DNA of 50,316 nt from a virus (taxonomy: Duplodnaviria > Caudoviricetes), in IMG/VR virus record IMGVR_UViG_3300032246_001342, positions 1 through 50,316 of that record; one strand, 5' to 3'. The notes under the pieces are model-generated. The model searched no databases. It worked only from the letters and a program-made list of their open reading frames with translations, and was not told where the DNA came from. The position numbers were made by a program, and so were the translations under genes. Of this stretch, positions 3,911-21,689 are shown piece after piece. Position 1 is the stretch's first letter, and each line of letters starts with the position of its first letter.

Positions 3911-5887
3911 TCACCGGGTCCGGCGGGTTCGTGCCAAACGGTCGAGGATGGCGTCGAGCATCGCCGATTCTCGTCGGGTGAGCCGTGGCGGGTGTTCCCA
4001 TTCGTCGAGCTTCGAGCGGTCAAAAAGGCTCCAAATCCACGCCGCAAACGTGCCTCTTGTTTGCCGTTCGGCGACGTACGATTCGAGAACGTTCATGGAA
4101 TACGACCCGTCCCGGAGGTCGAATTCGAGTTCCACCGTCTCGCCGTGTTCCTTCCACCACGCCCGGCCTTCCGGCGTCGTCATGAGGTCCGAAACACGTT
4201 GGACGTTTGTCAACCCGGCGTCGCCTAGTTTGCGCCGCCAAAACATGCCGGTGAGGTCCCCATCGAAACCAAACCGCGCCCATGTGTAGTATCCGTTGTA
4301 AATTCCATCGTCGCGCGCGGCGAGCGTTTTGATTTTCTTGTAACCGGCCCGGCGGTAACTTTGAACCTGCGAAGCGAAGGCGCGCGCGCCCGTTCCCTTT
4401 CCTTCGTTCGTGATCTTCATGTAATCATGCGACACGATGCCTTGGTCCGGGAAGAACGTCCGATTCGCTCGGACATTGTCAGTTTCCACGAGGATTTGAA
4501 CTCGACGGTCGAATTGTTGGCCCGCAACATGACCGCCGACGTTTGCGTTGTCGCTTGATTGAACAATGCCCGTTGCCCATTCCATGACGTCAAACCCGAC
4601 GGCGTCTTCAACATCAGCCCCCAAATGTTGCGGTGTGTTGTTGCGGATCGGAGCACGGCGCGGCAAATTGTCCACGGTGACCGGGTCCGGCCTTGGCGCG
4701 GGCTTGGGGTCCGGTTCCGTCTTCGGTTTTGGTTGCACCGTTGGCGTCGGCGGCGCGGGAACCGTGACCGAAACCGGGTCGTTGTTTGGGTTCCAAATGG
4801 TGTTCGGTCGGCTTGGGATTTCACCGGAAGCGACGCGCTTCAAATCCCGGATCGGCGTCACGGTAACGTTTGTTCCCCAAACGGGATGGCGGGTTTCTTT
4901 GACACAATCGGCGAGGGTGATTTCACCCGCTTTCCACATGCGGAGCCGTTCGGGTGAACCCATGATTCGGGCTTGGACGTCCGCCGGTTGCGTTTTGAGC
5001 CAATCGTCGCCGAACGGAAGGTCCGGTTTTTCATCATCGACAAAAGGCATCGCCGTACATCGACAAGCCGGGTGACTGTGCATATCCTCGGTCACCGGGT
5101 GTTGGGACATGTGTTTCGCAAGACACGCCGGGCATGTGAACATGTTCAACGACGCAACCCACACCCAACCTTTGACGACGTCGTCATTGTTGCGATAATT
5201 GGCGGTCTGCGCGCCGCGATACATTCGCATCGACTCTGTCCGGGCGATGAGTTCCGCGCGCCGGTACGTGACGCCATCGACGTTGTTTTTGACCTTCGCG
5301 TAAATGGACCGCGCAACATCACGCGGGTTTCGACCGACGGCGACGCCGTTGGTCAATTCGTCGCGCATGGCTCGGTACATCGCGCCTTGGAGTTCGTTCC
5401 GGGCTGTTTGGGCGATTCCGTTCAACAATGCGCCAGCGGGCGCGCGGGCGCGGAGGTTGGCGACCATCATGTCCAAAGCTTCGCGAGGAAGCATTTGGAA
5501 CGACACACCGGGCGAAGCCACCGAAAGGCGCGTCGCCGCATGTTCGCCGCCCATGACCGCCGCCGTTGTTCCAAGCCGGTCGATGGTGTCCCGCGCCGAT
5601 CCGCCAAACCGCTCGATTTCTTCGCCCATTTGGACAAGGAGAGCGGTCCATCGTTGTTGTCGCCACAACCAATTCGGATGGACCGGCTCGCCGTTTTCGA
5701 GAGCGGTTTCGATCTGACGGAGCACCCTTTCGAGTTCACGGAACGCCTTTTTCGTTGCCGTTTCGTATGCCGACGATAACGATTTGAGCGCGTCGTCGTC
5801 GAGGCGCAACAATTCGAGGCGTTGGGTTTCGATGAAATCCCACGGCGTTTTCGGGTTCCGTGTGTTGACCGGCGCGGGCGTTGGCAC
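3911..5887 (-). CDS. MuF/SPP1 gp7-like minor head protein with C-terminal GNAT-like domain
   Basis: Downstream of portal; RAELIARTES, WVWVAS...TCPAC, HPACRC MuF motifs; Pro/Thr linker; EGKGTG and NGYYTWARFGF motifs. Confidence 0.85.
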   Translation of the reverse strand: MPTPAPVNTRNPKTPWDFIETQRLELLRLDDDALKSLSSAYETATKKAFRELERVLRQIETALENGEPVHPNWLWRQQRWTALLVQMGEEIERFGGSARDTIDRLGTTAAVMGGEHAATRLSVASPGVSFQMLPREALDMMVANLRARAPAGALLNGIAQTARNELQGAMYRAMRDELTNGVAVGRNPRDVARSIYAKVKNNVDGVTYRRAELIARTESMRMYRGAQTANYRNNDDVVKGWVWVASLNMFTCPACLAKHMSQHPVTEDMHSHPACRCTAMPFVDDEKPDLPFGDDWLKTQPADVQARIMGSPERLRMWKAGEITLADCVKETRHPVWGTNVTVTPIRDLKRVASGEIPSRPNTIWNPNNDPVSVTVPAPPTPTVQPKPKTEPDPKPAPRPDPVTVDNLPRRAPIRNNTPQHLGADVEDAVGFDVMEWATGIVQSSDNANVGGHVAGQQFDRRVQILVETDNVRANRTFFPDQGIVSHDYMKITNEGKGTGARAFASQVQSYRRAGYKKIKTLAARDDGIYNGYYTWARFGFDGDLTGMFWRRKLGDAGLTNVQRVSDLMTTPEGRAWWKEHGETVELEFDLRDGSYSMNVLESYVAERQTRGTFAAWIWSLFDRSKLDEWEHPPRLTRRESAMLDAILDRLARTRRTR

Positions 5888-7700: not shown

Positions 7701-8303
7701 TCAAAATTCGAACGGTTGTTGCCAATGGGCATGGTGAACCGCGCGCGCTCCCCACGGTAAATGTTTGAGGAACCGCACGAACCCGGAGCCGTCCACCGAA
7801 TCACAACCGACGTCGCTCGCGTATTGGATGCGCCGCCGACTGTTCACCCTTCCCATGTGAACCCATTTGTCGCGTCGCTTGGCTTCGGCGATGATCGACC
7901 GGGCAACCGATCCCATTTTGAACGCCGTCGTTCCGCCCACAAACACGGCGTCGCATTCGTCCCACGGGATCGCCTCGACCGTTGCGCCGTCTTGGACGAC
8001 AAACGCCGCCGGGAGGCCATGTGAGCGAATCACGGGCAACCACAAGGGCCAAAAGGCGAGCGTCGCGGCATGGTTGCCGACAACGTCCGGCGCGGTGATG
8101 AACCGAACCGGACGACCGGCGAGGCGTTTGAGGTAACGCCGGAACCTTCGTTCGTCGAACGTCCCGAAACAACCATTGTCGGCGGCTTCGTCGAGGCCAC
8201 CAACGTCGGCGGAAAAATGGCGCGGCGTGTGAAGGACGCCAACCGAATATAGGCGGGCGACCTCCACGACGTCGGCGTTGTATCGGGACACGAAAAGGAT
8301 CAT
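7701..8303 (-). CDS. Divergent TGT/DpdA-fold transglycosylase-like protein (second paralogue)
   Basis: Ordered motifs ADNGCF, PDVVGN, VQDG, FVGG, VHMGRV, DSVDGS parallel DSGAF, LDVVGD, FQRG, AVGG, HLLG, SCDS of 20299..21120. Confidence 0.65.
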   Translation of the reverse strand: MILFVSRYNADVVEVARLYSVGVLHTPRHFSADVGGLDEAADNGCFGTFDERRFRRYLKRLAGRPVRFITAPDVVGNHAATLAFWPLWLPVIRSHGLPAAFVVQDGATVEAIPWDECDAVFVGGTTAFKMGSVARSIIAEAKRRDKWVHMGRVNSRRRIQYASDVGCDSVDGSGFVRFLKHLPWGARAVHHAHWQQPFEF

Positions 8304-8758
8304 TCCGACGCGATTTTCACGAATTCCGCCATGAGCCGTTCTTGTTCCAACATGTTCACGACCCGTTCGACGACTTCGCCTTCCATGACCACGAACACAC
8401 CATTGAGCGGCTTCCCGTCGGCGGTTTTGAGGACGACCGACATTTGCCCGGCTCCGGCTTCGCGCGCCGATTCGATCAACATCCCGACGGCACCTTCAAC
8501 CCGTCCCGGTTGCGATGGCGACATTTCCGAACCGTGTTGTTCAACGAGTTCGAGCAAATCCGCCGCGAGGTGTTCGTTGTCTTTGGCAACCGATGCGGCG
8601 TATGCAACGAGCGCGACGCGGGCGTGTGGGTCGTATGGGCGGAGGACGAACGCCGGGCTTTCAATGACCTCGCCGACCGTCCCGTCGTCGTTGCGTCGAT
8701 GGATGACGTATTTCGAAACCAAACCGCGCGGGTCCGGCGTGTATGTGGGTTTGCTCAT
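8300..8758 (-). CDS. Hypothetical protein
   Basis: 152 aa, ATGA-coupled to neighbours; KYVIHR...FVLRPYDPHARVALVAYA is a recurrent phage motif. Confidence 0.7.
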   Translation of the reverse strand: MSKPTYTPDPRGLVSKYVIHRRNDDGTVGEVIESPAFVLRPYDPHARVALVAYAASVAKDNEHLAADLLELVEQHGSEMSPSQPGRVEGAVGMLIESAREAGAGQMSVVLKTADGKPLNGVFVVMEGEVVERVVNMLEQERLMAEFVKIASE

Positions 8759-9167: not shown

Positions 9168-9478
9168 CGTCGGATCACCAATTTGATTTCGAATTGGTCA
9201 CGGACCATTCGATTCGCTGATATTGTGCGATTGAACGGGCCTTGCGACAATTCAATCCGGGCTGGAATCAATTCGAACGTCGCTTCCGGTCGAGCACCCG
9301 GTCGAACGTTGCAATTCATCGCCTTCAACACCGGATCGGCGATGAAGACCGTCGCATCGGGTCCGCAAGCGATCATCACGCCTTGGATCGAAGCGAGTTC
9401 GCGATTTGCTTTTCGCAATTGAGCGTTTTCGCGCCGCAACGCGCCGATCATGCGTTTTTGGGTTTTGGTTTGGCTCAT
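9164..9478 (-). CDS. Hypothetical protein
   Basis: Start MSQTKTQ overlaps the ASCH stop (ATGA). Confidence 0.6.
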   Translation of the reverse strand: MSQTKTQKRMIGALRRENAQLRKANRELASIQGVMIACGPDATVFIADPVLKAMNCNVRPGARPEATFELIPARIELSQGPFNRTISANRMVRDQFEIKLVIRR

Positions 9479-10023
9479 GATCGCGCGGCCCTCCGACACA
9501 TGAGCGGGTCGCATCCGGGATGACACACGAGGCCCGACAATTCGCAAAGGTCGATGATGGCTTGCAATCGGACGGCGCGCTCGACCGGTTGTTCCAACGT
9601 CCAAAAACCTTGGTGTCCCATGCATGGGATCGGTTTGAGTCGAACAACGTCGCCGAGTTTCCATGCGAACCGTCCGGGTCCGTGGTTACCGAGCATGTAT
9701 TCTTCCCATGCGCGGCGGTCCGTGATGGTCGGATCGTCGGCGTTTGGCCCATACAACGCCTCGGTCGGAAGACATTCGACGAACCGCCCGACGGCAACGA
9801 GCGCGCCGAGCGGCGGTTGGCTTTCATATCCGAGGTCGATCCCGTGGCCTTTGAGTTCGTCGGCGAATCGCCGTTCGGCACGTTGCCACCGGCGCGACGC
9901 ATGGATCGCGACAAATTGCCCGGCGTACGCCTTCGGGAACCGCCATGATCGCGTCTCGTACGTCTTCGACCCGGCGGCGATGGCGGACGCCCACGGTTGC
10001 CAAAGCGAAATGGCTCTAAGCAT
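9475..10023 (-). CDS. ASCH (PUA-fold) domain protein
   Basis: AISLWQPWASAIAAGSKTYETRSW, VAIHAS, GRFAWKL, GHQGFW. Confidence 0.9.
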   Translation of the reverse strand: MLRAISLWQPWASAIAAGSKTYETRSWRFPKAYAGQFVAIHASRRWQRAERRFADELKGHGIDLGYESQPPLGALVAVGRFVECLPTEALYGPNADDPTITDRRAWEEYMLGNHGPGRFAWKLGDVVRLKPIPCMGHQGFWTLEQPVERAVRLQAIIDLCELSGLVCHPGCDPLMCRRAARS

Positions 10024-10405
10024 CGCCGCCCTTCGGTCGTTGGGACAACCCGCGCCATCCGCTCGCGTCGATTTCCCGCGTGAGTGCGTCGAGCGTTTCC
10101 ATCGCAAGACGACGACGACCGAATTCGTTCCGATCCATCATGCGGGACGCGCCGTTCATCGACCAAACACGGTCGTTGTACACGAACGCATTCACTTCGT
10201 CAATGGTTTTCCCGTCCTTGCCGTCGAGGACGCATACGCGGGCGAACGCGGCGTCGAGGCCGACCGTTGTGTAAACGATCCGCCATTCGAGGCGGACCCA
10301 TGAGAAGCGAGGATGAACCGCCGATCCTTTGACGTCCGTCGGCCCTTCCGGGCTGGCGTAGTTAGGGAGCGGTTCGAGGTTCGTGAGTTTGGTTACTTGC
10401 TCCAT
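10016..10405 (-). CDS. Hypothetical protein, first gene of the ASCH/TGT-like operon
   Basis: ATG 9 nt after the TACAAT box; overlaps the ASCH start. Confidence 0.65.
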   Translation of the reverse strand: MEQVTKLTNLEPLPNYASPEGPTDVKGSAVHPRFSWVRLEWRIVYTTVGLDAAFARVCVLDGKDGKTIDEVNAFVYNDRVWSMNGASRMMDRNEFGRRRLAMETLDALTREIDASGWRGLSQRPKGGDA

Positions 10406-17705: not shown

Positions 17706-17736
17706 GCCGGGCGCGCCAAGACGCCCGGCCTTTTTT
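17706..17736 (+). terminator. Intrinsic terminator between convergent operons
   Basis: GCCGGGCG-loop-CGCCCGGC then T6. Confidence 0.7.
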
Positions 17737-18409
17737 ATGCCCGCACGAGATGGAAGAATTCTTCACGGGCGGCGGGTTCATCACGAAACGCGCCGCGAAG
17801 GTCCGATGTGACCATCACGGAATTTTGCTTCCCGACGCCGCGCATCCGAATACAAAAATGCTCGGCTTCGATCATCACGGCGACGCCACGCGGTTCGAGG
17901 TGCGTTTCGATGGCGTCGGCAATTTGAGCGGTCAACCGCTCTTGGACTTGGAGCCGCCGGGCGAACACTTCGACCACGCGAGCGAGTTTCGAAATGCCGA
18001 CGACGCGGTTCCCGTTTGGGATGTATGCCACATGGACGCGCCCGACGAACGGCAACATGTGATGTTCGCAAAGCGAATAAAGCTCGATGTCTCGAAGGAG
18101 CACGATCCCGTCGTATGCCGTGGCGTCTTCGCCATCCGAATCGAATTGGCGAGCAAGGTGAACCGCCGGGTCGTCGTTGTAACCGGCGAGCAAATCCCGG
18201 TATGCCTTCGCGACCCGCATCGGCGTCTCGTGCGTTCCTGAATGACGGAACAAACCGAGCCGTTCCATAACGAGATCGACGGCGTCGGCGATTCCGCTCG
18301 TGTCGGCGGCGATTTTGGCCTCCGTGCCCTTTTGCGCGGGTTTCGGGTGTTCCGAGTCGTATTCGCTGGGAAACGCCGGGCGGAGGTCCTTGGAGGCGTC
18401 AAAATCCAC
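17735..18409 (-). CDS. folE: GTP cyclohydrolase I
   Basis: [47 protein letters not shown]; GTG start with GGAGGTG SD. Confidence 0.95.
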
Positions 18410-19133
18410 GGCTCGCGTCACCTCCCAATGGAATCCGCCGAAGGTCGGCGTTTGGGTCCATCCGATCAACGCCGTACAATTTATGAAGTTGCCAACCCGC
18501 GCGAACTTCTTGGAGAAGCGGCGGCGATTGAACCGCCTCGCAAATTGCGCGCAACACTTCCGGGTCGTCCCGCTTGGACCATTCGGGATGGAGCCACACA
18601 ACCGAATCGGGACGGCGCGGTCGATTCATCAAACACGCCGCCGAAGCGACAAGCGATTCGCGCGATTCGACTATGAATTTGAATTCGTCGGCGAGGGCGA
18701 TGGATTGGTCGAGCGGATGCGCCGCGAACGGTTTGGGCGACAACGTGATCCAATCCCAATCGCCCGTGATCGGTCGGTGTCCGGCGGTTTCGAGGTGCGT
18801 GGCAAACCCACGCGCGCGAAGCGCGGTCGTCAATTCGCCAAGGTCGTACATGGTTGGCTCGCCGCCAGTCACAACGACAAACGGCAACGGTGATTCAATC
18901 GGGAGGTTTCTCCGAGCGTCGCCGACGTTCAACCAAACCAAATCGGCGATTTGTTCGCCGGTCACGCGCGGGTGTTGCGTTTTGAATTTTGGATGCCATG
19001 TACCCGCCGAATCACACCACGGACATGATTGGTCGCATCCGTGAAGCCGGACAAAATACGCCGCCCGTCCCATGTGGACGCCTTCGCCTTGAAACGCCCG
19101 GAAATGCTCATTCAGGACATATTGCCCGTTCAT
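18399..19133 (-). CDS. queE: 7-carboxy-7-deazaguanine synthase (radical SAM)
   Basis: [33 protein letters not shown]. Confidence 0.95.
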
Positions 19134-19585
19134 GCTCGGAGTTCCACCCACGACGTTTCGGTTTCGACCACACGGAGCCGCACGAGTGACACATGAGCCG
19201 GGAGCCGTGGTTCGATGTCCGCCCACAAAATCGCCGCGATGTTCTCGGTTGTTGGTCGAACACCAAGGACCACGACCCGCGATTCGTTTCGGATTTCATC
19301 CCGAACCGGAATGTTCATGTCGTCCCGGTGAAGGTATGCCATCGTTTCGTGCTCGACAATGAACGCATGGTCGAACCGGTCGATGACGGGTTGGACGCAT
19401 GTTTTCAATCGGGTGAGGTCCATCACCATCCCGGCTTCTTGCCCATTGGCGACGAGCGCGCCAGCGGCGACCGAAACTTCGACCTTGTACGAATGCCCGT
19501 GAACATGTCCACAAAGGCCGTCGTACCCTTCGAGATAATGAGCGGCCTCGAAAGTGAACCGCTTGGTGATTTCAAGATTTGGCAT
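19130..19585 (-). CDS. queD: 6-carboxy-5,6,7,8-tetrahydropterin synthase
   Basis: FEAAH, CGHVHGHSY, FDH, PTTENIA, ETETS. Confidence 0.95.
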   Translation of the reverse strand: MPNLEITKRFTFEAAHYLEGYDGLCGHVHGHSYKVEVSVAAGALVANGQEAGMVMDLTRLKTCVQPVIDRFDHAFIVEHETMAYLHRDDMNIPVRDEIRNESRVVVLGVRPTTENIAAILWADIEPRLPAHVSLVRLRVVETETSWVELRA

Positions 19586-19600
19586 GGTTGATTGTTAGGT

Positions 19601-20302
19601 TTACGAACGAATGGTCGCGAGGACGGTGTCGAGGTCGGGCGCGGTTGGCGCATATTCCGTTGGGTCGTCGATTTCGGCGTCTCGAAAAGCTTCACGCCGT
19701 TCGATGCACGTCCCACACGCGCCACAATGAACGTCGCCGCCGAGGTAACAAGACCATGTCATTTCAAGCGGCGCGCCGTTCCATGCGCCCATTTTGACGA
19801 TCTGCGCTTTCGTTAGGGAAACGAACGGTCGTTCGAGGTTGATCGGTCGGTCGTCCGCGCGCCGCAACGCTTGGTCGAGTGCGATGGAAAAATCTTCCCG
19901 ACAATCGGGATAAATGGCTCGGTCGCCCGAATGCGCGCCGTAAATGACCGAACCGCCGCCGTGGGCGAGGCAGATCGCCGCCGCCGCCGAAATCATGAGC
20001 ATGTTCCGGTTTGGGACGATGGTCGCTTTCATGGACGGATCGGCGTAATGCCCGAACGGAACATCGACGTCCGGGTCGGTTTGCGATGATCCCGGAAGGT
20101 GCGACGCCATTCCCGACATGTCGATCACGTCATGAGGAACGCCAGCGATCCGGGCGATTTCGCTCGCGGCTTCAAGTTCCCGGCGACCGTGTCGTTGCCC
20201 GTAATTGATCGACACGGCGCGGAGCGGTCGTTCACGCTCCAAAAGCCGATAAAGTAGGACGGTCGAATCGAGTCCGCCCGAAAAAATACAAACGTTGATC
20301 AT
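19601..20302 (-). CDS. queC: 7-cyano-7-deazaguanine synthase
   Basis: SGGLDS, YGQRH, VPNRN, YPDCR, TWSCY...CGACGTCIER. Confidence 0.95.
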   Translation of the reverse strand: MINVCIFSGGLDSTVLLYRLLERERPLRAVSINYGQRHGRRELEAASEIARIAGVPHDVIDMSGMASHLPGSSQTDPDVDVPFGHYADPSMKATIVPNRNMLMISAAAAICLAHGGGSVIYGAHSGDRAIYPDCREDFSIALDQALRRADDRPINLERPFVSLTKAQIVKMGAWNGAPLEMTWSCYLGGDVHCGACGTCIERREAFRDAEIDDPTEYAPTAPDLDTVLATIRS

Positions 20303-21120
20303 CGTCGTTTTGTTCCTTCCAATTGCCACGCCTGTTCGACCCAATCAAGGTCGTTCATCGAACCACACGCGGCGTAAACGTGCGAACCGAATGTCCGTTC
20401 GGCGTCGGTCGAAAATCGAATAATGGAACGCGCGCCGAGGACGCCCATGTCGCGCCGCCAAAAATCTTCGGTCCGCATTTTGGCGCGGGTGACGCCGTAC
20501 GATTCGAGCGTTTTCCATGTGTCGGCGTTGATTTTGCCCGCCTTCCACATGCCTTTGTGAATGCCGTTTCGACGTCCACGCCCGGCGTACAACATCACTT
20601 GAAGGCCGCGTGTCCCAAACATCCAATTCGTCGAATCGCACGAATACGGCTTGGTCGCCGCGATGGTCGGCGGCGACACATGTCCGAGTAAATGCGCTTT
20701 TCTCCCGTGGACCTTGCCCATGAACCATTTGCAAAATCCGGCCTTGTCTTGTGATCCGCCGAGGCCACCAACCGCGACAACGTCGGCGAGGCCGAACAAA
20801 TCGTCGATGTCGGTTTCTGGCATTCCGCGTTGGAACACCGCAATCGGTTTGAGGCCCGAATCGACCATCGCGCGAAGGTTGTCGATGGTTGCGGCGCGGT
20901 CGCCGACCACGTCCAATTGGAAATAACCGGTCGGCTCGAATGGCAACGCGCGAAGGAACGCGATGTATTCGTCGAGGCGGATCGGTTTCCCAGCGTTCCA
21001 CGCGCTGAACGCGCCGGAGTCGATGTAAACGTTCGCGCCGCGCTCGCGCATGTCGGCGAGTTTCGCGACGATGGTCGCCGAGGCGTACGGGAAGGCGACG
21101 AGGACGTTTACGCCGATCAT
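20299..21120 (-). CDS. dpdA: DpdA-like DNA 7-deazaguanine transglycosylase (TGT fold)
   Basis: YIDSGAFS, LDVVGD, AVGG, HLLG, YSCDSTNW; directly upstream of queC-D-E-folE. Confidence 0.8.
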   Translation of the reverse strand: MIGVNVLVAFPYASATIVAKLADMRERGANVYIDSGAFSAWNAGKPIRLDEYIAFLRALPFEPTGYFQLDVVGDRAATIDNLRAMVDSGLKPIAVFQRGMPETDIDDLFGLADVVAVGGLGGSQDKAGFCKWFMGKVHGRKAHLLGHVSPPTIAATKPYSCDSTNWMFGTRGLQVMLYAGRGRRNGIHKGMWKAGKINADTWKTLESYGVTRAKMRTEDFWRRDMGVLGARSIIRFSTDAERTFGSHVYAACGSMNDLDWVEQAWQLEGTKRR

Positions 21121-21689
21121 TCGATGGTCACTCCGTCGAACGATTCCACGGCGGCGGCGATGGCGGTTTTCACGTCCCCAATGATGGACCTCGGAGCATG
21201 GACGACAACCCGTTCGATTGCATCCGAACCGTTTTCGCGTTTTTGGTGTCCACGGTTCACGACGTCTTCGTCCCATTCACCGGCAAGCGACGCGAGGATT
21301 TCATCGGCTTCGGTCGATCCGTACCCGGTACCGGTGAGGCCGAGTTCCGTTTGAACCAATTCCGCGAGGATTGCGCCGAGCGATTGTTCGTCGTAATCGG
21401 CAAGGTCCGACGTTTTGTTGTCGGCGAGGATGATCCGTTTGGCCTCTTCGTCGGACACATCGACCCAAAGGACCGGGATTTCGTCCGCTTGCTCTTGGAT
21501 CGCCGCCAAATACCGATGGTTGCCCGCGAGAATGTAGTTGGTCGATTGTTGAACAACAACCGCGCCGTAAAACCCGTTTGTTTTGACTGATTCGGCGATG
21601 ACGGCAACATTTCCGCGCCGTGGGTTGAGCGGGTGCGTGTGGAGCGTCGCCACTGGCACCATTTCAAATGCTTGGTTAATCACGCGCAT
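21117..21689 (-). CDS. ParB/Srx-like N-terminal domain protein
   Basis: LHTHPLNPRRGN, IAESVKTNGF, ILAGNHRYLAA, ILADNK. Confidence 0.85.
   Translation of the reverse strand: MRVINQAFEMVPVATLHTHPLNPRRGNVAVIAESVKTNGFYGAVVVQQSTNYILAGNHRYLAAIQEQADEIPVLWVDVSDEEAKRIILADNKTSDLADYDEQSLGAILAELVQTELGLTGTGYGSTEADEILASLAGEWDEDVVNRGHQKRENGSDAIERVVVHAPRSIIGDVKTAIAAAVESFDGVTIE

What the first reader, a model, noticed from the sequence alone, without database searches (positions are those of the whole stretch)
7701..8303. Second, divergent TGT/DpdA-fold enzyme outside the que operon: possible two-enzyme base-exchange system
Seen: this 200-aa protein repeats the motif order of the DpdA-like gene at 20299..21120, with characteristic substitutions (DNGCF for DSGAF, PDVVGN for LDVVGD, HMGRV for HLLG, DSVDGS for YSCDST). 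It lies about 12 kb away, at the end of an operon with an ASCH gene and its own promoter. Established: one DpdA suffices for phage deazaguanine insertion. Inference: a second sequence specificity, a different base or substrate (RNA, host DNA), or a glycosylase-like role. I do not know of a characterised system with this pairing.
Basis: partly seen in the sequence, partly recalled or inferred. Interest (0 to 1): 0.75.

Follow-up and report, generated by a model that had tools for sequence, protein, structure and literature searches.

The report
Second, small DpdA-like enzyme in phage
This phage carries, besides its normal DNA guanine-swapping enzyme (DpdA), a second much smaller and very divergent relative from a large, unstudied viral family tied to 7-deazaguanine supply genes, and the same pairing turns up in a few unrelated phages.

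Summary
Window 7701-8303 (minus strand) encodes a 200-aa protein, P0001. It is a remote but statistically supported homologue of the DpdA at 20299-21120, P0002 (hhalign 92%, E 6.3e-7; cross-family HMM hits against no shuffled hits). AlphaFold gives a compact 8-stranded TIM barrel (pLDDT 95).

P0001 belongs to a large viral family with no Pfam model: phrog_15826, 5079 relatives. GenBank already labels some members "DpdA-like tRNA-guanine transglycosylase".

Context ties the family to 7-deazaguanine:
- 48 of 80 viral loci have a YhhQ/Vut_1-type precursor transporter gene on the same strand in the flank.
- 10 of 80 sit beside queC/queE/queD.
- Rare fusions join it to DNA methylases, Mom and Vut_1.

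The pairing with a canonical DpdA and a full folE-queDEC set recurs in Arthrobacter phage Sonali, one IMG/VR contig, Vibrio phage R29Z and E. coli phage phiG7, where the gene is split.

Most likely P0001 is an active second 7-deazaguanine transglycosylase acting on DNA. What it adds to DpdA is untested. No promoter of its own is supported. Earlier scan notes recorded YhhQ plus small-DpdA cassettes on other DNA. I found no record of the pairing in those notes or in the papers I searched.

The parts
7701..8303 (-). P0001: 200-aa compact TIM-barrel protein, divergent DpdA-like (phrog_15826 family)
   Evidence: phrog_15826, E 3.1e-52; pLDDT 95.1; hhalign to the DpdA family, E 6.3e-7; invariant D42, D73, Q104, G123-G124, K129, H149, R152, N154, R158, D171 in 200 of 200 family sequences.
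8300..8758 (-). 152-aa ORF of unknown role whose stop overlaps the P0001 start (ATGA)
   Evidence: Residues 4-74 hit phrog_9572 at E 1.2e-15. No homologue was found next to P0001 relatives in 80 viral loci.
9475..10107 (-). ASCH-like ORF upstream in the same block (true start probably near 10023)
   Evidence: Pfam ASCH E 0.0088, 17.2 bits, below the 21.2 cut-off. phrog_3193 E 3e-32. Homologues lie 2-4 kb from P0001 relatives in only 2 of 80 loci, L003 and L006.
20299..21120 (-). P0002: canonical phage DpdA (9g/CAjan-like, DpdA1-type)
   Evidence: phrog_887 'queuine tRNA-ribosyltransferase' E 2.6e-22. tblastn hits to annotated DpdA of phages Iggy, 9g and Bipper. AlphaFold pLDDT 94.4. Best solved-structure matches are archaeosine TGT 1j2b and 1iq8, with bDpdA 7ui4 at rank 12.
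21117..21689 (-). ParB-like gene whose stop overlaps the DpdA start
   Evidence: The same ParB-DpdA order is seen in Sonali and L069. ParB_N-type genes also lie near P0001 relatives in 7 of 80 loci.
19601..20344 (-). queC
   Evidence: The window QueC query finds QueC of Sonali at E 3e-68.
19130..19585 (-). queD (PTPS family)
   Evidence: PF01242 match at 19136-19573, E 4.2e-35.
18399..19226 (-). queE (radical SAM; start uncertain)
   Evidence: The window QueE query hits annotated QueE of Sonali at E 1e-13.
17735..18601 (-). folE (GTP cyclohydrolase I; start uncertain)
   Evidence: PF01227 match at 17744-18283, E 1.8e-68.

Best explanation
P0001 is a catalytically intact, very divergent member of the TGT/DpdA superfamily: a minimal 200-aa TIM barrel.

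Proposed mechanism (inferred). Like DpdA, it exchanges a guanine in DNA for a 7-deazaguanine base. Here the base is most likely preQ0, made by the phage's own FolE-QueD-QueE-QueC. D42 would act as general acid/base, D73 and Q104 would read the base, and D171 would be the nucleophile that forms the covalent intermediate.

Family behaviour. The family normally works on its own, fed either by a phage YhhQ-type importer or by adjacent que genes.

In this phage. It is a second transglycosylase beside a canonical DpdA1-type enzyme (P0002) and its ParB-like partner. It probably widens or changes the set of guanines that get modified.

What is shown and what is inferred:
- Shown: the homology, the fold, the conserved residues, the genomic links and the recurrence of the pairing.
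- Inferred: the substrate (DNA), the base inserted, and what the second enzyme adds.
For: Homology to DpdA: hhalign A1 against A2 gives 92.1%, E 6.3e-7. Cross-family HMM hits occur and shuffled sequences give none. The A2 model also picks up P0001 relatives in whole-record searches at E 6.5e-7 to 5.5e-4.

Fold: 8-stranded barrel, pLDDT 95.1. After one family member, the nearest viral models are enriched in phage 'queuine tRNA-ribosyltransferase' (ranks 3, 4, 8, 10, 11, 22).

Active site:
- D42, D73, Q104, G123-G124, H149 and D171 are invariant in 200 of 200 family sequences.
- D42-x-x-x-F46 mirrors Asp95/Phe99 of Salmonella DpdA. That protein's Asp95, Asp130 and Asp256 are the acid/base, base-reading and nucleophile residues (passages of PMC10164549).
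- The strand register S169-V170-D171 matches S160-C161-D162 of P0002.

Link to 7-deazaguanine:
- 48 of 80 IMG/VR loci have a same-strand Vut_1/YhhQ-family ORF in the flank. For the cluster as first defined, the median gap to the homologue is 28 bases.
- Vut_1 is present in 20 of 41 records and in 9 of 15 that are at least 90% complete.
- 10 of 80 loci lie directly beside queC, queE or queD.
- A QueF-like ORF lies just upstream in 4 loci.

Link to DNA: fusions to N6/N4 and C5 DNA methylases, to Mom and to Vut_1. C5-methylase and ParB_N neighbours occur in 7 loci each. The gene sits directly before the DNA polymerase gene in R29Z and phiG7.

Self-sufficiency: in 6 of the 8 QueC-bearing records among the 40 searched, no canonical (A2-type) DpdA is found on the contig.

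Pairing recurs: Sonali, L069, Vibrio phage R29Z and E. coli phage phiG7.

A quick tree scatters the que-adjacent rows (7 changes for 8 rows) and the paired rows (3 changes for 3 rows) among YhhQ-linked ones.
Against: - No biochemical or mass-spectrometry data exist for any member that I could find.
- Neither Pfam TGT (PF01702) nor any other Pfam or NCBIfam model matches P0001.
- PDB sequence searches find nothing.
- Foldseek against the PDB ranks generic TIM barrels (pyruvate kinase, IMPDH, TrpA) above TGT, which is at rank 16 with E 1.7e-5. The genuine DpdA P0002 is also poorly separated in the same test.
- hhalign places the nucleophile at D168, which is only 90% conserved (180 of 200). My assignment to D171 rests on invariance and strand register, not on a superposition.
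- The protein lacks the roughly 100 C-terminal residues of P0002 and any Cys cluster for the TGT/bDpdA zinc site. How it would grip DNA is unknown.
- Mycobacterial hosts of cluster P phages lack the preQ0 pathway. Mycobacterium phage Orion, a DpdA-only phage whose DpdA neither of my family profiles detects, showed no deazaguanine in its DNA (passages of PMC6884629).
- 23 of 80 loci show neither a transporter nor que genes in the flank.
- 4 of 15 near-complete records have neither QueC nor Vut_1.
Confidence: 0.6

Rival explanations
1. P0001-type enzymes modify RNA, for example tRNA as the ancestral TGTs do, not DNA. The phage would use the second enzyme to alter host or phage tRNA with preQ0 or preQ1, while P0002 modifies DNA.
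For: The superfamily's founding members are tRNA enzymes. A YhhQ-type importer and que genes would serve tRNA modification equally well. PMC6884629 raises Q-precursor boosting for phages that have que genes but no DpdA (passage).
Against: Fusion partners are DNA-modifying enzymes: N6/N4 and C5 DNA methylases and Mom. Recurrent neighbours are DNA methylase, ParB_N, SSB and DNA polymerase genes. The protein lacks the extra domains with which TGTs hold tRNA (200 aa, barrel only).
Confidence: 0.12
2. P0001 acts on a small or non-nucleic-acid acceptor. It might exchange the base on a free (deoxy)nucleotide so that the polymerase incorporates it. Or it might attach a deazaguanine to a protein, as the TGT-like Cap10 does with the QueC-like Cap9 in CBASS.
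For: The barrel is minimal, has no visible DNA-binding insertion, and carries an invariant K129/R152/N154/R158 set that DpdA lacks. Several relatives pair only with QueC and lack folE on the contig: G008, G018, G028, G036. The Cap10-CdnD structure 9ntn ranks 4th for the P0002 model, so TGT-like folds are used on proteins too.
Against: No precedent for a TGT-family enzyme acting on mononucleotides came up in the papers I read. The fusions to DNA methylases and Mom point to DNA. The QueC neighbours score as ordinary QueC (E 1e-30 to 1e-62).
Confidence: 0.1
3. In this phage P0001 is redundant or on its way out: a horizontally acquired salvage-type DpdA that adds nothing to P0002. Alternatively it is a non-catalytic partner subunit.
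For: The pairing is rare. Of the 60 listed rows (85 records in all) with a P0002-like DpdA, only the two Sonali records are also among the 27 records with a P0001 relative. R29Z and phiG7 were added by my own HMM check. In phiG7 the gene is split into two ORFs. The gene sits in a moron-like block between terL and portal.
Against: P0001 keeps every family-invariant residue. Relatives at 83% and 59% identity exist on other contigs. The pairing is found with hosts from Actinobacteria and Gammaproteobacteria. Most family members occur without any canonical DpdA, so an obligate-subunit role is unlikely.
Confidence: 0.1
4. P0001 is a DNA glycosylase-like enzyme that only removes bases, for example from host DNA or from misinserted sites, and does not insert a deazaguanine.
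For: The first half of the TGT mechanism is base excision.
Against: A pure glycosylase needs no base supply. Yet 57 of 80 loci carry an importer or que genes beside the gene, and fusions include the importer itself.
Confidence: 0.05

Closest known systems
Phage DpdA1 (Enterobacteria phage 9g, Escherichia phage CAjan, Mycobacterium phage Rosebush type); P0002 in this window is of this type
   Same: Same superfamily by profile comparison. Same order of conserved motifs: D-x-G-x-F, (P/L)-D-V-(V/I)-G, G-G, H-x-(x)-G, S-x-D. Same genomic company of que genes and ParB-like genes.
   Different: P0001 is 200 aa against 273 aa and lacks the C-terminal hairpin and helical region of P0002. It falls in a different PHROG (15826 against 887). 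It has DN instead of DS after the first Asp, and an invariant HMGRVNSxxR and K129 that DpdA1 lacks. It usually travels with a YhhQ-type transporter and not with a full preQ0 pathway.
'DpdA-only' (singleton) phage DpdAs of Hutinet et al. 2019 (PMC6884629, passages read), including Pantoea phage MED16 DpdA (PMC8306585, passages read), whose DNA carries low levels of dADG
   Same: Small DpdA-like enzymes in phages without preQ0 synthesis genes. MED16 gp38 shares the DNGAF and PD(I/V)(I/V) motifs with the P0001 family.
   Different: MED16 gp38 matches the DpdA1-type profile better (82.9%, E 9.2e-6) than the P0001-family profile (49.5%, E 1.7e-4, 76 columns only). Neither family profile finds anything in Mycobacterium phage Orion (best E 1.3 for A1 and 0.5 for A2). 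Whether the 2019 catalogue lists P0001-family members is in supplements I could not open.
Bacterial DpdA of the Dpd system (Salmonella Montevideo, PDB 7UI4; PMC10164549, passages read)
   Same: TIM-barrel base exchange with Asp acid/base, Asp base reader and Asp nucleophile. Works with a ParB-like partner (DpdB). A ParB-like gene accompanies P0002 here and some P0001 relatives elsewhere.
   Different: bDpdA is about twice as long (413 residues) and has a structural zinc site and DpdA-specific insertions. P0001 has three scattered cysteines and no insertions. 7ui4 is not among the 50 listed PDB matches of the P0001 model.
DpdA4 / DUF6610 (Halovirus HVTV-1 gene 69; PMC10516641, passages read)
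   Same: It is the nearest named cluster in the ESM Atlas feature search (score 0.91). It is also a very divergent viral TGT-like family.
   Different: 0 of 43 family members match PF20314 even at E 10. PF20314 finds nothing in Sonali or Majeke. hhalign of A1 against the HVTV-1 protein gives probability 0.1%.

Membership tests
TGT/DpdA superfamily (TIM-barrel guanine transglycosylases) | (beta/alpha)8 TIM-barrel catalytic domain | tested here: met
   The AlphaFold model has pLDDT 95.1 and 8 strands alternating with helices. All top Foldseek matches are TIM barrels, and TGT entries 2nqz, 2bbf and 4ghr are among them at E about 2e-5.
TGT/DpdA superfamily (TIM-barrel guanine transglycosylases) | Significant sequence-profile similarity to bona fide members | tested here: met
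   hhalign against the P0002/DpdA family gives 92.1%, E 6.3e-7. Cross HMM hits are 27 of 200 and 4 of 44, against 0 shuffled. Pfam PF01702 itself matches neither P0001 nor the genuine DpdA P0002.
TGT/DpdA superfamily (TIM-barrel guanine transglycosylases) | General acid/base Asp followed at +4 by an aromatic residue, and a base-reading Asp (Asp95/Phe99 and Asp130 in bDpdA) | tested here: met
   D42 (F46 at +4) and D73 align with the invariant D34 (F38) and D70 of the DpdA family. D42 and D73 are 200 of 200 conserved. Position 46 is F, Y or W in 200 of 200. The mapping onto bDpdA numbering is by motif order, not by a computed alignment.
TGT/DpdA superfamily (TIM-barrel guanine transglycosylases) | Nucleophile Asp at the end of a late barrel strand (Asp256 in bDpdA) | tested here: inconclusive
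   hhalign pairs D168 with D162 of P0002, but D168 is only 180 of 200 conserved. D171 is 200 of 200 and lies in the same strand register (S169-V170-D171 against S160-C161-D162). No coordinates were available for a superposition.
TGT/DpdA superfamily (TIM-barrel guanine transglycosylases) | Structural zinc-binding site (present in TGTs and bDpdA according to PMC10164549) | tested here: not met
   P0001 has only three scattered cysteines (C45, C117, C167) and ends about 30 residues after the last barrel strand. P0002, a genuine phage DpdA, also shows no Cys cluster, so this feature does not define phage DpdAs.
TGT/DpdA superfamily (TIM-barrel guanine transglycosylases) | Guanine to 7-deazaguanine exchange activity | not testable with these tools
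   Only indirect support: neighbourhood with YhhQ-type importers, que genes and a QueF-like gene.
DpdA1 (9g/CAjan type) | Full-length match to the DpdA1-type profile, including the C-terminal region | tested here: not met
   The A2 HMM gives only E 2.9e-4 (15.8 bits) for P0001, whereas A2-type DpdAs of Sonali, L069, R29Z and phiG7 score E 5e-34 to 2.9e-48. P0001 lacks about 100 C-terminal residues. It falls in phrog_15826, not phrog_887.
DpdA4 / DUF6610 (PF20314) | Match to PF20314 | tested here: not met
   0 of 43 members match at E up to 10. There is no match in the Sonali or Majeke records, while HVTV-1 scores E 2.9e-58. hhalign of A1 against the HVTV-1 protein gives probability 0.1%.
DpdA3 (Cellulophaga phiST / Campylobacter phage type) | Sequence relationship to the DpdA3 of Cbastvirus ST phages | tested here: not met
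   The A1 HMM, even with filters off, finds nothing better than E 1.3 among the ORFs of Cellulophaga phage phi19:2 (same species as phiST) searched together with those of Orion. The DpdA3 gene itself was not located, so no direct comparison was made.
phrog_15826 (unnamed viral family) | Full-length match to the PHROG profile | tested here: met
   E 3.1e-52, residues 2-193 on profile positions 2-201 of 212.

The most novel reading that the evidence does not exclude
The P0001 family is a distinct, self-sufficient 'mini-DpdA' subfamily outside DpdA1-4. It may be the most widespread viral deazaguanine transglycosylase. Where it is paired with a DpdA1-type enzyme in one que cluster, the two are non-redundant: they target different sequence motifs, DNA states (for example replicating against packaging DNA) or bases. 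Together they would give a denser or broader hypermodification than either alone.
Probability: 0.35. Interest if true: 0.7.

Novelty: new variant of a known kind. Interest (0 to 1): 0.5.

Why it matters
7-Deazaguanine modification is a major way for phages to escape restriction, and DpdA is regarded as its signature enzyme. Five subfamilies are in print: bDpdA and DpdA1-4 (PMC10516641, abstract and passages).

This gene belongs to a very large, experimentally untouched family (5079 relatives). It keeps the candidate catalytic residues in half the size and has clear links to precursor import and synthesis.

If the family is active, the catalogue of phages predicted to carry modified DNA grows. 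It would also offer a minimal scaffold for studying how a bare TIM barrel flips and exchanges a DNA base.

Phages that carry both enzyme types, such as this one, are natural test cases for how sequence specificity and modification density are set.

Tried and rejected
- Direct family look-ups gave nothing for P0001: Pfam and NCBIfam, PDB by sequence and by profile. The DpdA-family profile A2 also finds no PDB sequence.
- Foldseek against the PDB does not single out TGT, either for P0001 or for the genuine DpdA control, so I did not use it as a membership test.
- DUF6610/DpdA4, suggested by the ESM Atlas, was rejected at sequence level. A wider DUF6610 profile could not be built because only 3 close loci were found.
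- DpdA3 and the Orion-type singleton were sought with PF01702, A1 and A2 in phage phi19:2 and Orion. Nothing was found, and I did not locate those genes.
- The weak EAL-domain hits of 10 of 43 members (best E 0.022) were taken as TIM-barrel noise.
- A near-identical DNA relative of the window was not found among GenBank phages.
- The scan's own notes hold nothing on this genome or on this sequence.
- Heterodimer test of P0002 with P0001: no verdict (score 0.01, mark 0.32). This is no evidence either way.
- Conserved partnership with the upstream 152-aa ORF or the ASCH-like gene was rejected: 0 and 2 of 80 loci respectively.
- The tree is the quick version, because the careful search did not finish. 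I use it only to say that the context labels are scattered.

Full report
**What is there**

The window is a complete 50,316-base phage genome with direct terminal repeats. All the genes I examined are on the minus strand. The order along that strand is:
- replication genes: initiator, helicase, Sak4-like protein;
- endolysin;
- ParB-like gene, DpdA, queC, queD, queE, folE;
- unknown genes;
- terS and terL;
- a block of small genes;
- portal.

The finding is the last gene of that block, 7701-8303, 200 aa (P0001). Its ATG overlaps the stop of the preceding 152-aa ORF (ATGA). A 125-base gap separates it from the portal gene.

The canonical DpdA (P0002, 20299-21120) is 11,996 bases away. Its start overlaps the stop of the ParB-like gene.

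**Is the likeness real?**

Pairwise BLASTP is only marginal (E 0.041). No Pfam, NCBIfam or PDB sequence search names P0001.

Profiles settle the question:
- A 43-row alignment of P0001 relatives (A1) against a 44-row alignment of P0002 relatives (A2) gives hhalign probability 92.1%, E 6.3e-7 over 138 columns.
- The DpdA HMM hits 27 of 200 P0001-family sequences at E<1e-3 and none of 200 shuffled ones. The reverse test gives 4 of 44 against 0 of 44.
- In whole-record searches the DpdA model also picked up P0001 relatives weakly.

AlphaFold models both proteins with high confidence (pLDDT 95.1 and 94.4). P0001 is a bare eight-stranded barrel. P0002 has an extra hairpin and a helical C-terminal region.

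Foldseek against the PDB gives P0001 generic TIM barrels, with TGT only at rank 16. The genuine DpdA control is hardly better separated: archaeosine TGT ranks 1-2 at E 2e-4 and bDpdA 7ui4 ranks 12. I therefore do not treat that test as discriminating.

Against viral models, phage 'queuine tRNA-ribosyltransferases' fill ranks 3, 4, 8, 10, 11 and 22, after one true family member.

**Active site**

Across 200 family sequences the following are invariant: D42, P72, D73, Q104, G106, G123, G124, K129, H149, G151, R152, N154, R158, D171 and G172.
- D42 with F46 four residues on, and D73, align with the invariant D34/F38 and D70 of the DpdA family.
- In Salmonella DpdA the matching roles are Asp95 (acid/base), Phe99 (stacks on the base), Asp130 (reads the base) and Asp256 (nucleophile) (passages of PMC10164549).
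- For the nucleophile, hhalign picks D168. That residue varies in 20 of 200 sequences, whereas D171 never does. D171 also occupies the same strand register as D162 of P0002. I assign D171, as an inference.
- There is no zinc-site cysteine cluster.

**The family and its company**

P0001 belongs to phrog_15826, 'unknown function'. The family has 5079 relatives at E up to 1e-3 in the protein collection. They are about 200 aa long and have no Pfam domain. Atlas clusters are about 80% viral.

GenBank holds 27 phage records with a relative. They include cluster P mycobacteriophages and Arthrobacter phages, where the gene is already annotated 'DpdA-like tRNA-guanine transglycosylase'.

I fetched 80 IMG/VR loci and clustered the neighbouring ORFs:
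- 48 of 80 have, on the same strand in the flank, a small membrane protein of the Vut_1/YhhQ family. For the cluster as first defined, the median gap to the homologue is 28 bases. The cluster representative is over the Pfam PF02592 cut-off (E 1.5e-11). It hits the NCBIfam 'queuosine precursor transporter' model below its cut-off.
- Majeke gp53, just upstream of its 'DpdA-like' gp54, is one of these transporters (E 1e-60).
- 10 of 80 lie directly beside queC, queE or queD. Only one locus has both kinds of neighbour.
- 23 have neither, and some of those sit at contig ends.
- A QueF-like ORF precedes the gene in 4 loci. C5 DNA methylase and ParB_N genes are neighbours in 7 loci each.

In whole records:
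- Vut_1 occurs in 20 of 41, and in 9 of 15 that are at least 90% complete.
- QueC occurs in 8 of 40, and in 2 of 14 near-complete.
- A strong canonical DpdA occurs in only 2 of 40.

Rare longer forms fuse the domain to N6/N4 or C5 DNA methylases, to Mom, or to a Vut_1 segment (25 long hits; the 10 checked are).

Together this ties the family to 7-deazaguanine precursors and to DNA modification.

**The pairing**

A P0001-type gene occurs with an A2-type DpdA in one que cluster in four cases besides the window:
- Arthrobacter phage Sonali, with the same ParB-DpdA-QueC-QueD-QueE-FolE order;
- IMG/VR locus L069;
- Vibrio phage R29Z, where the gene is intact and sits just before the DNA polymerase gene;
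- E. coli Seuratvirus phiG7, where it is split into two ORFs.

A second coliphage, SHIN8, gave the same two-piece hit, but I did not inspect it.

Among eleven records checked, the window included, folE was found only in the three that also carry the canonical DpdA. The records with P0001-type alone carry queC, with or without queE and queD, or the importer. Several of those contigs are incomplete.

On a quick tree the paired and the que-adjacent members are scattered among YhhQ-linked ones. The contexts therefore changed repeatedly while the enzyme stayed the same kind.

**How it most likely works**

P0001 is most likely an active second transglycosylase that puts the phage-made 7-deazaguanine, probably preQ0, into DNA by the TGT/DpdA double-displacement route.

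What it adds to P0002 is not known. A different target motif is the simplest idea. Known DpdAs differ in motif: CAjan has two motifs (title of PMC7544227) and Iggy has GA only (abstract listing of PMC10484667).

The rivals are:
- RNA as the target;
- a nucleotide or protein acceptor, as for Cap10;
- redundancy or decay;
- a pure glycosylase.

**Known and new**

One DpdA is sufficient in CAjan and 9g (passages).

'DpdA-only' phages and phage yhhQ genes are on record. [quoted passage not shown]

Earlier notes of this scan describe YhhQ plus small-DpdA cassettes on other DNA and judged them already catalogued.

MED16-type singleton DpdA is related to the P0001 family but is closer to the DpdA1 profile.

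I found no paper on this small family as such, or on two DpdA-type genes in one phage. The supplementary tables of the two Hutinet papers, which I could not open, may list members.

I therefore rate the gene as a new variant of a known kind. The family and the salvage cassette are essentially known at annotation level. The recurrent pairing with a canonical DpdA and the compact architecture are the new points.

Noticed in passing
L024, L044, L064, L079 (records G008, G018, G028, G036): Several phage contigs carry only queC directly beside the P0001-type gene. On the same contig they have no folE or queD and no canonical DpdA. One of them (G028) is 92% complete and also has the YhhQ-type importer. 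A QueC plus mini-TGT pair recalls the Cap9-Cap10 pair of CBASS, or may mean import of CDG and not preQ0.
   Followed up: partly
L050:7944-8495 and three other loci: A small QueF-like ORF (PF14489, E 9.9e-8; NCBIfam preQ1 synthase below its cut-off) sits just upstream of the P0001 relative. This hints that some members may handle preQ1 or an amidine derivative.
   Followed up: partly
L098:6809-7467 (Escherichia phage phiG7, genes 20-21): The P0001-type gene of this Seuratvirus is split into two overlapping ORFs between a 'DNA polymerase beta subunit' gene and the DNA polymerase gene. It may be a frameshift or a decaying copy. phiG7_11, annotated as hypothetical, is a YhhQ-type transporter by my HMM (E 1.7e-41).
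   Followed up: partly
window 8300-8758 (-): The 152-aa ORF translationally coupled to P0001 matches phrog_9572 ('sulfatase-modifying factor enzyme') over residues 4-74 only (E 1.2e-15). It has no counterpart next to P0001 relatives elsewhere.
   Followed up: no
BFVD entry A0A0F7L9Z1 (uncultured marine virus, 499 aa): This is the best structural match of P0001 (E 8e-13, TM 0.83 by query). It is a protein 2.5 times longer, so it is a fused form whose other half I did not identify.
   Followed up: no
window 3911-5887 (-): The 658-aa ORF just after the portal gene carries a long C-terminal extension. I did not analyse either part.
   Followed up: no
P0002 model against the PDB: The Cap10-CdnD complex (9ntn; TGT-like Cap10 of CBASS with a deazaguanine-type protein modification) ranks 4th and 7th for the phage DpdA model, ahead of bacterial DpdA 7ui4.
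   Followed up: no
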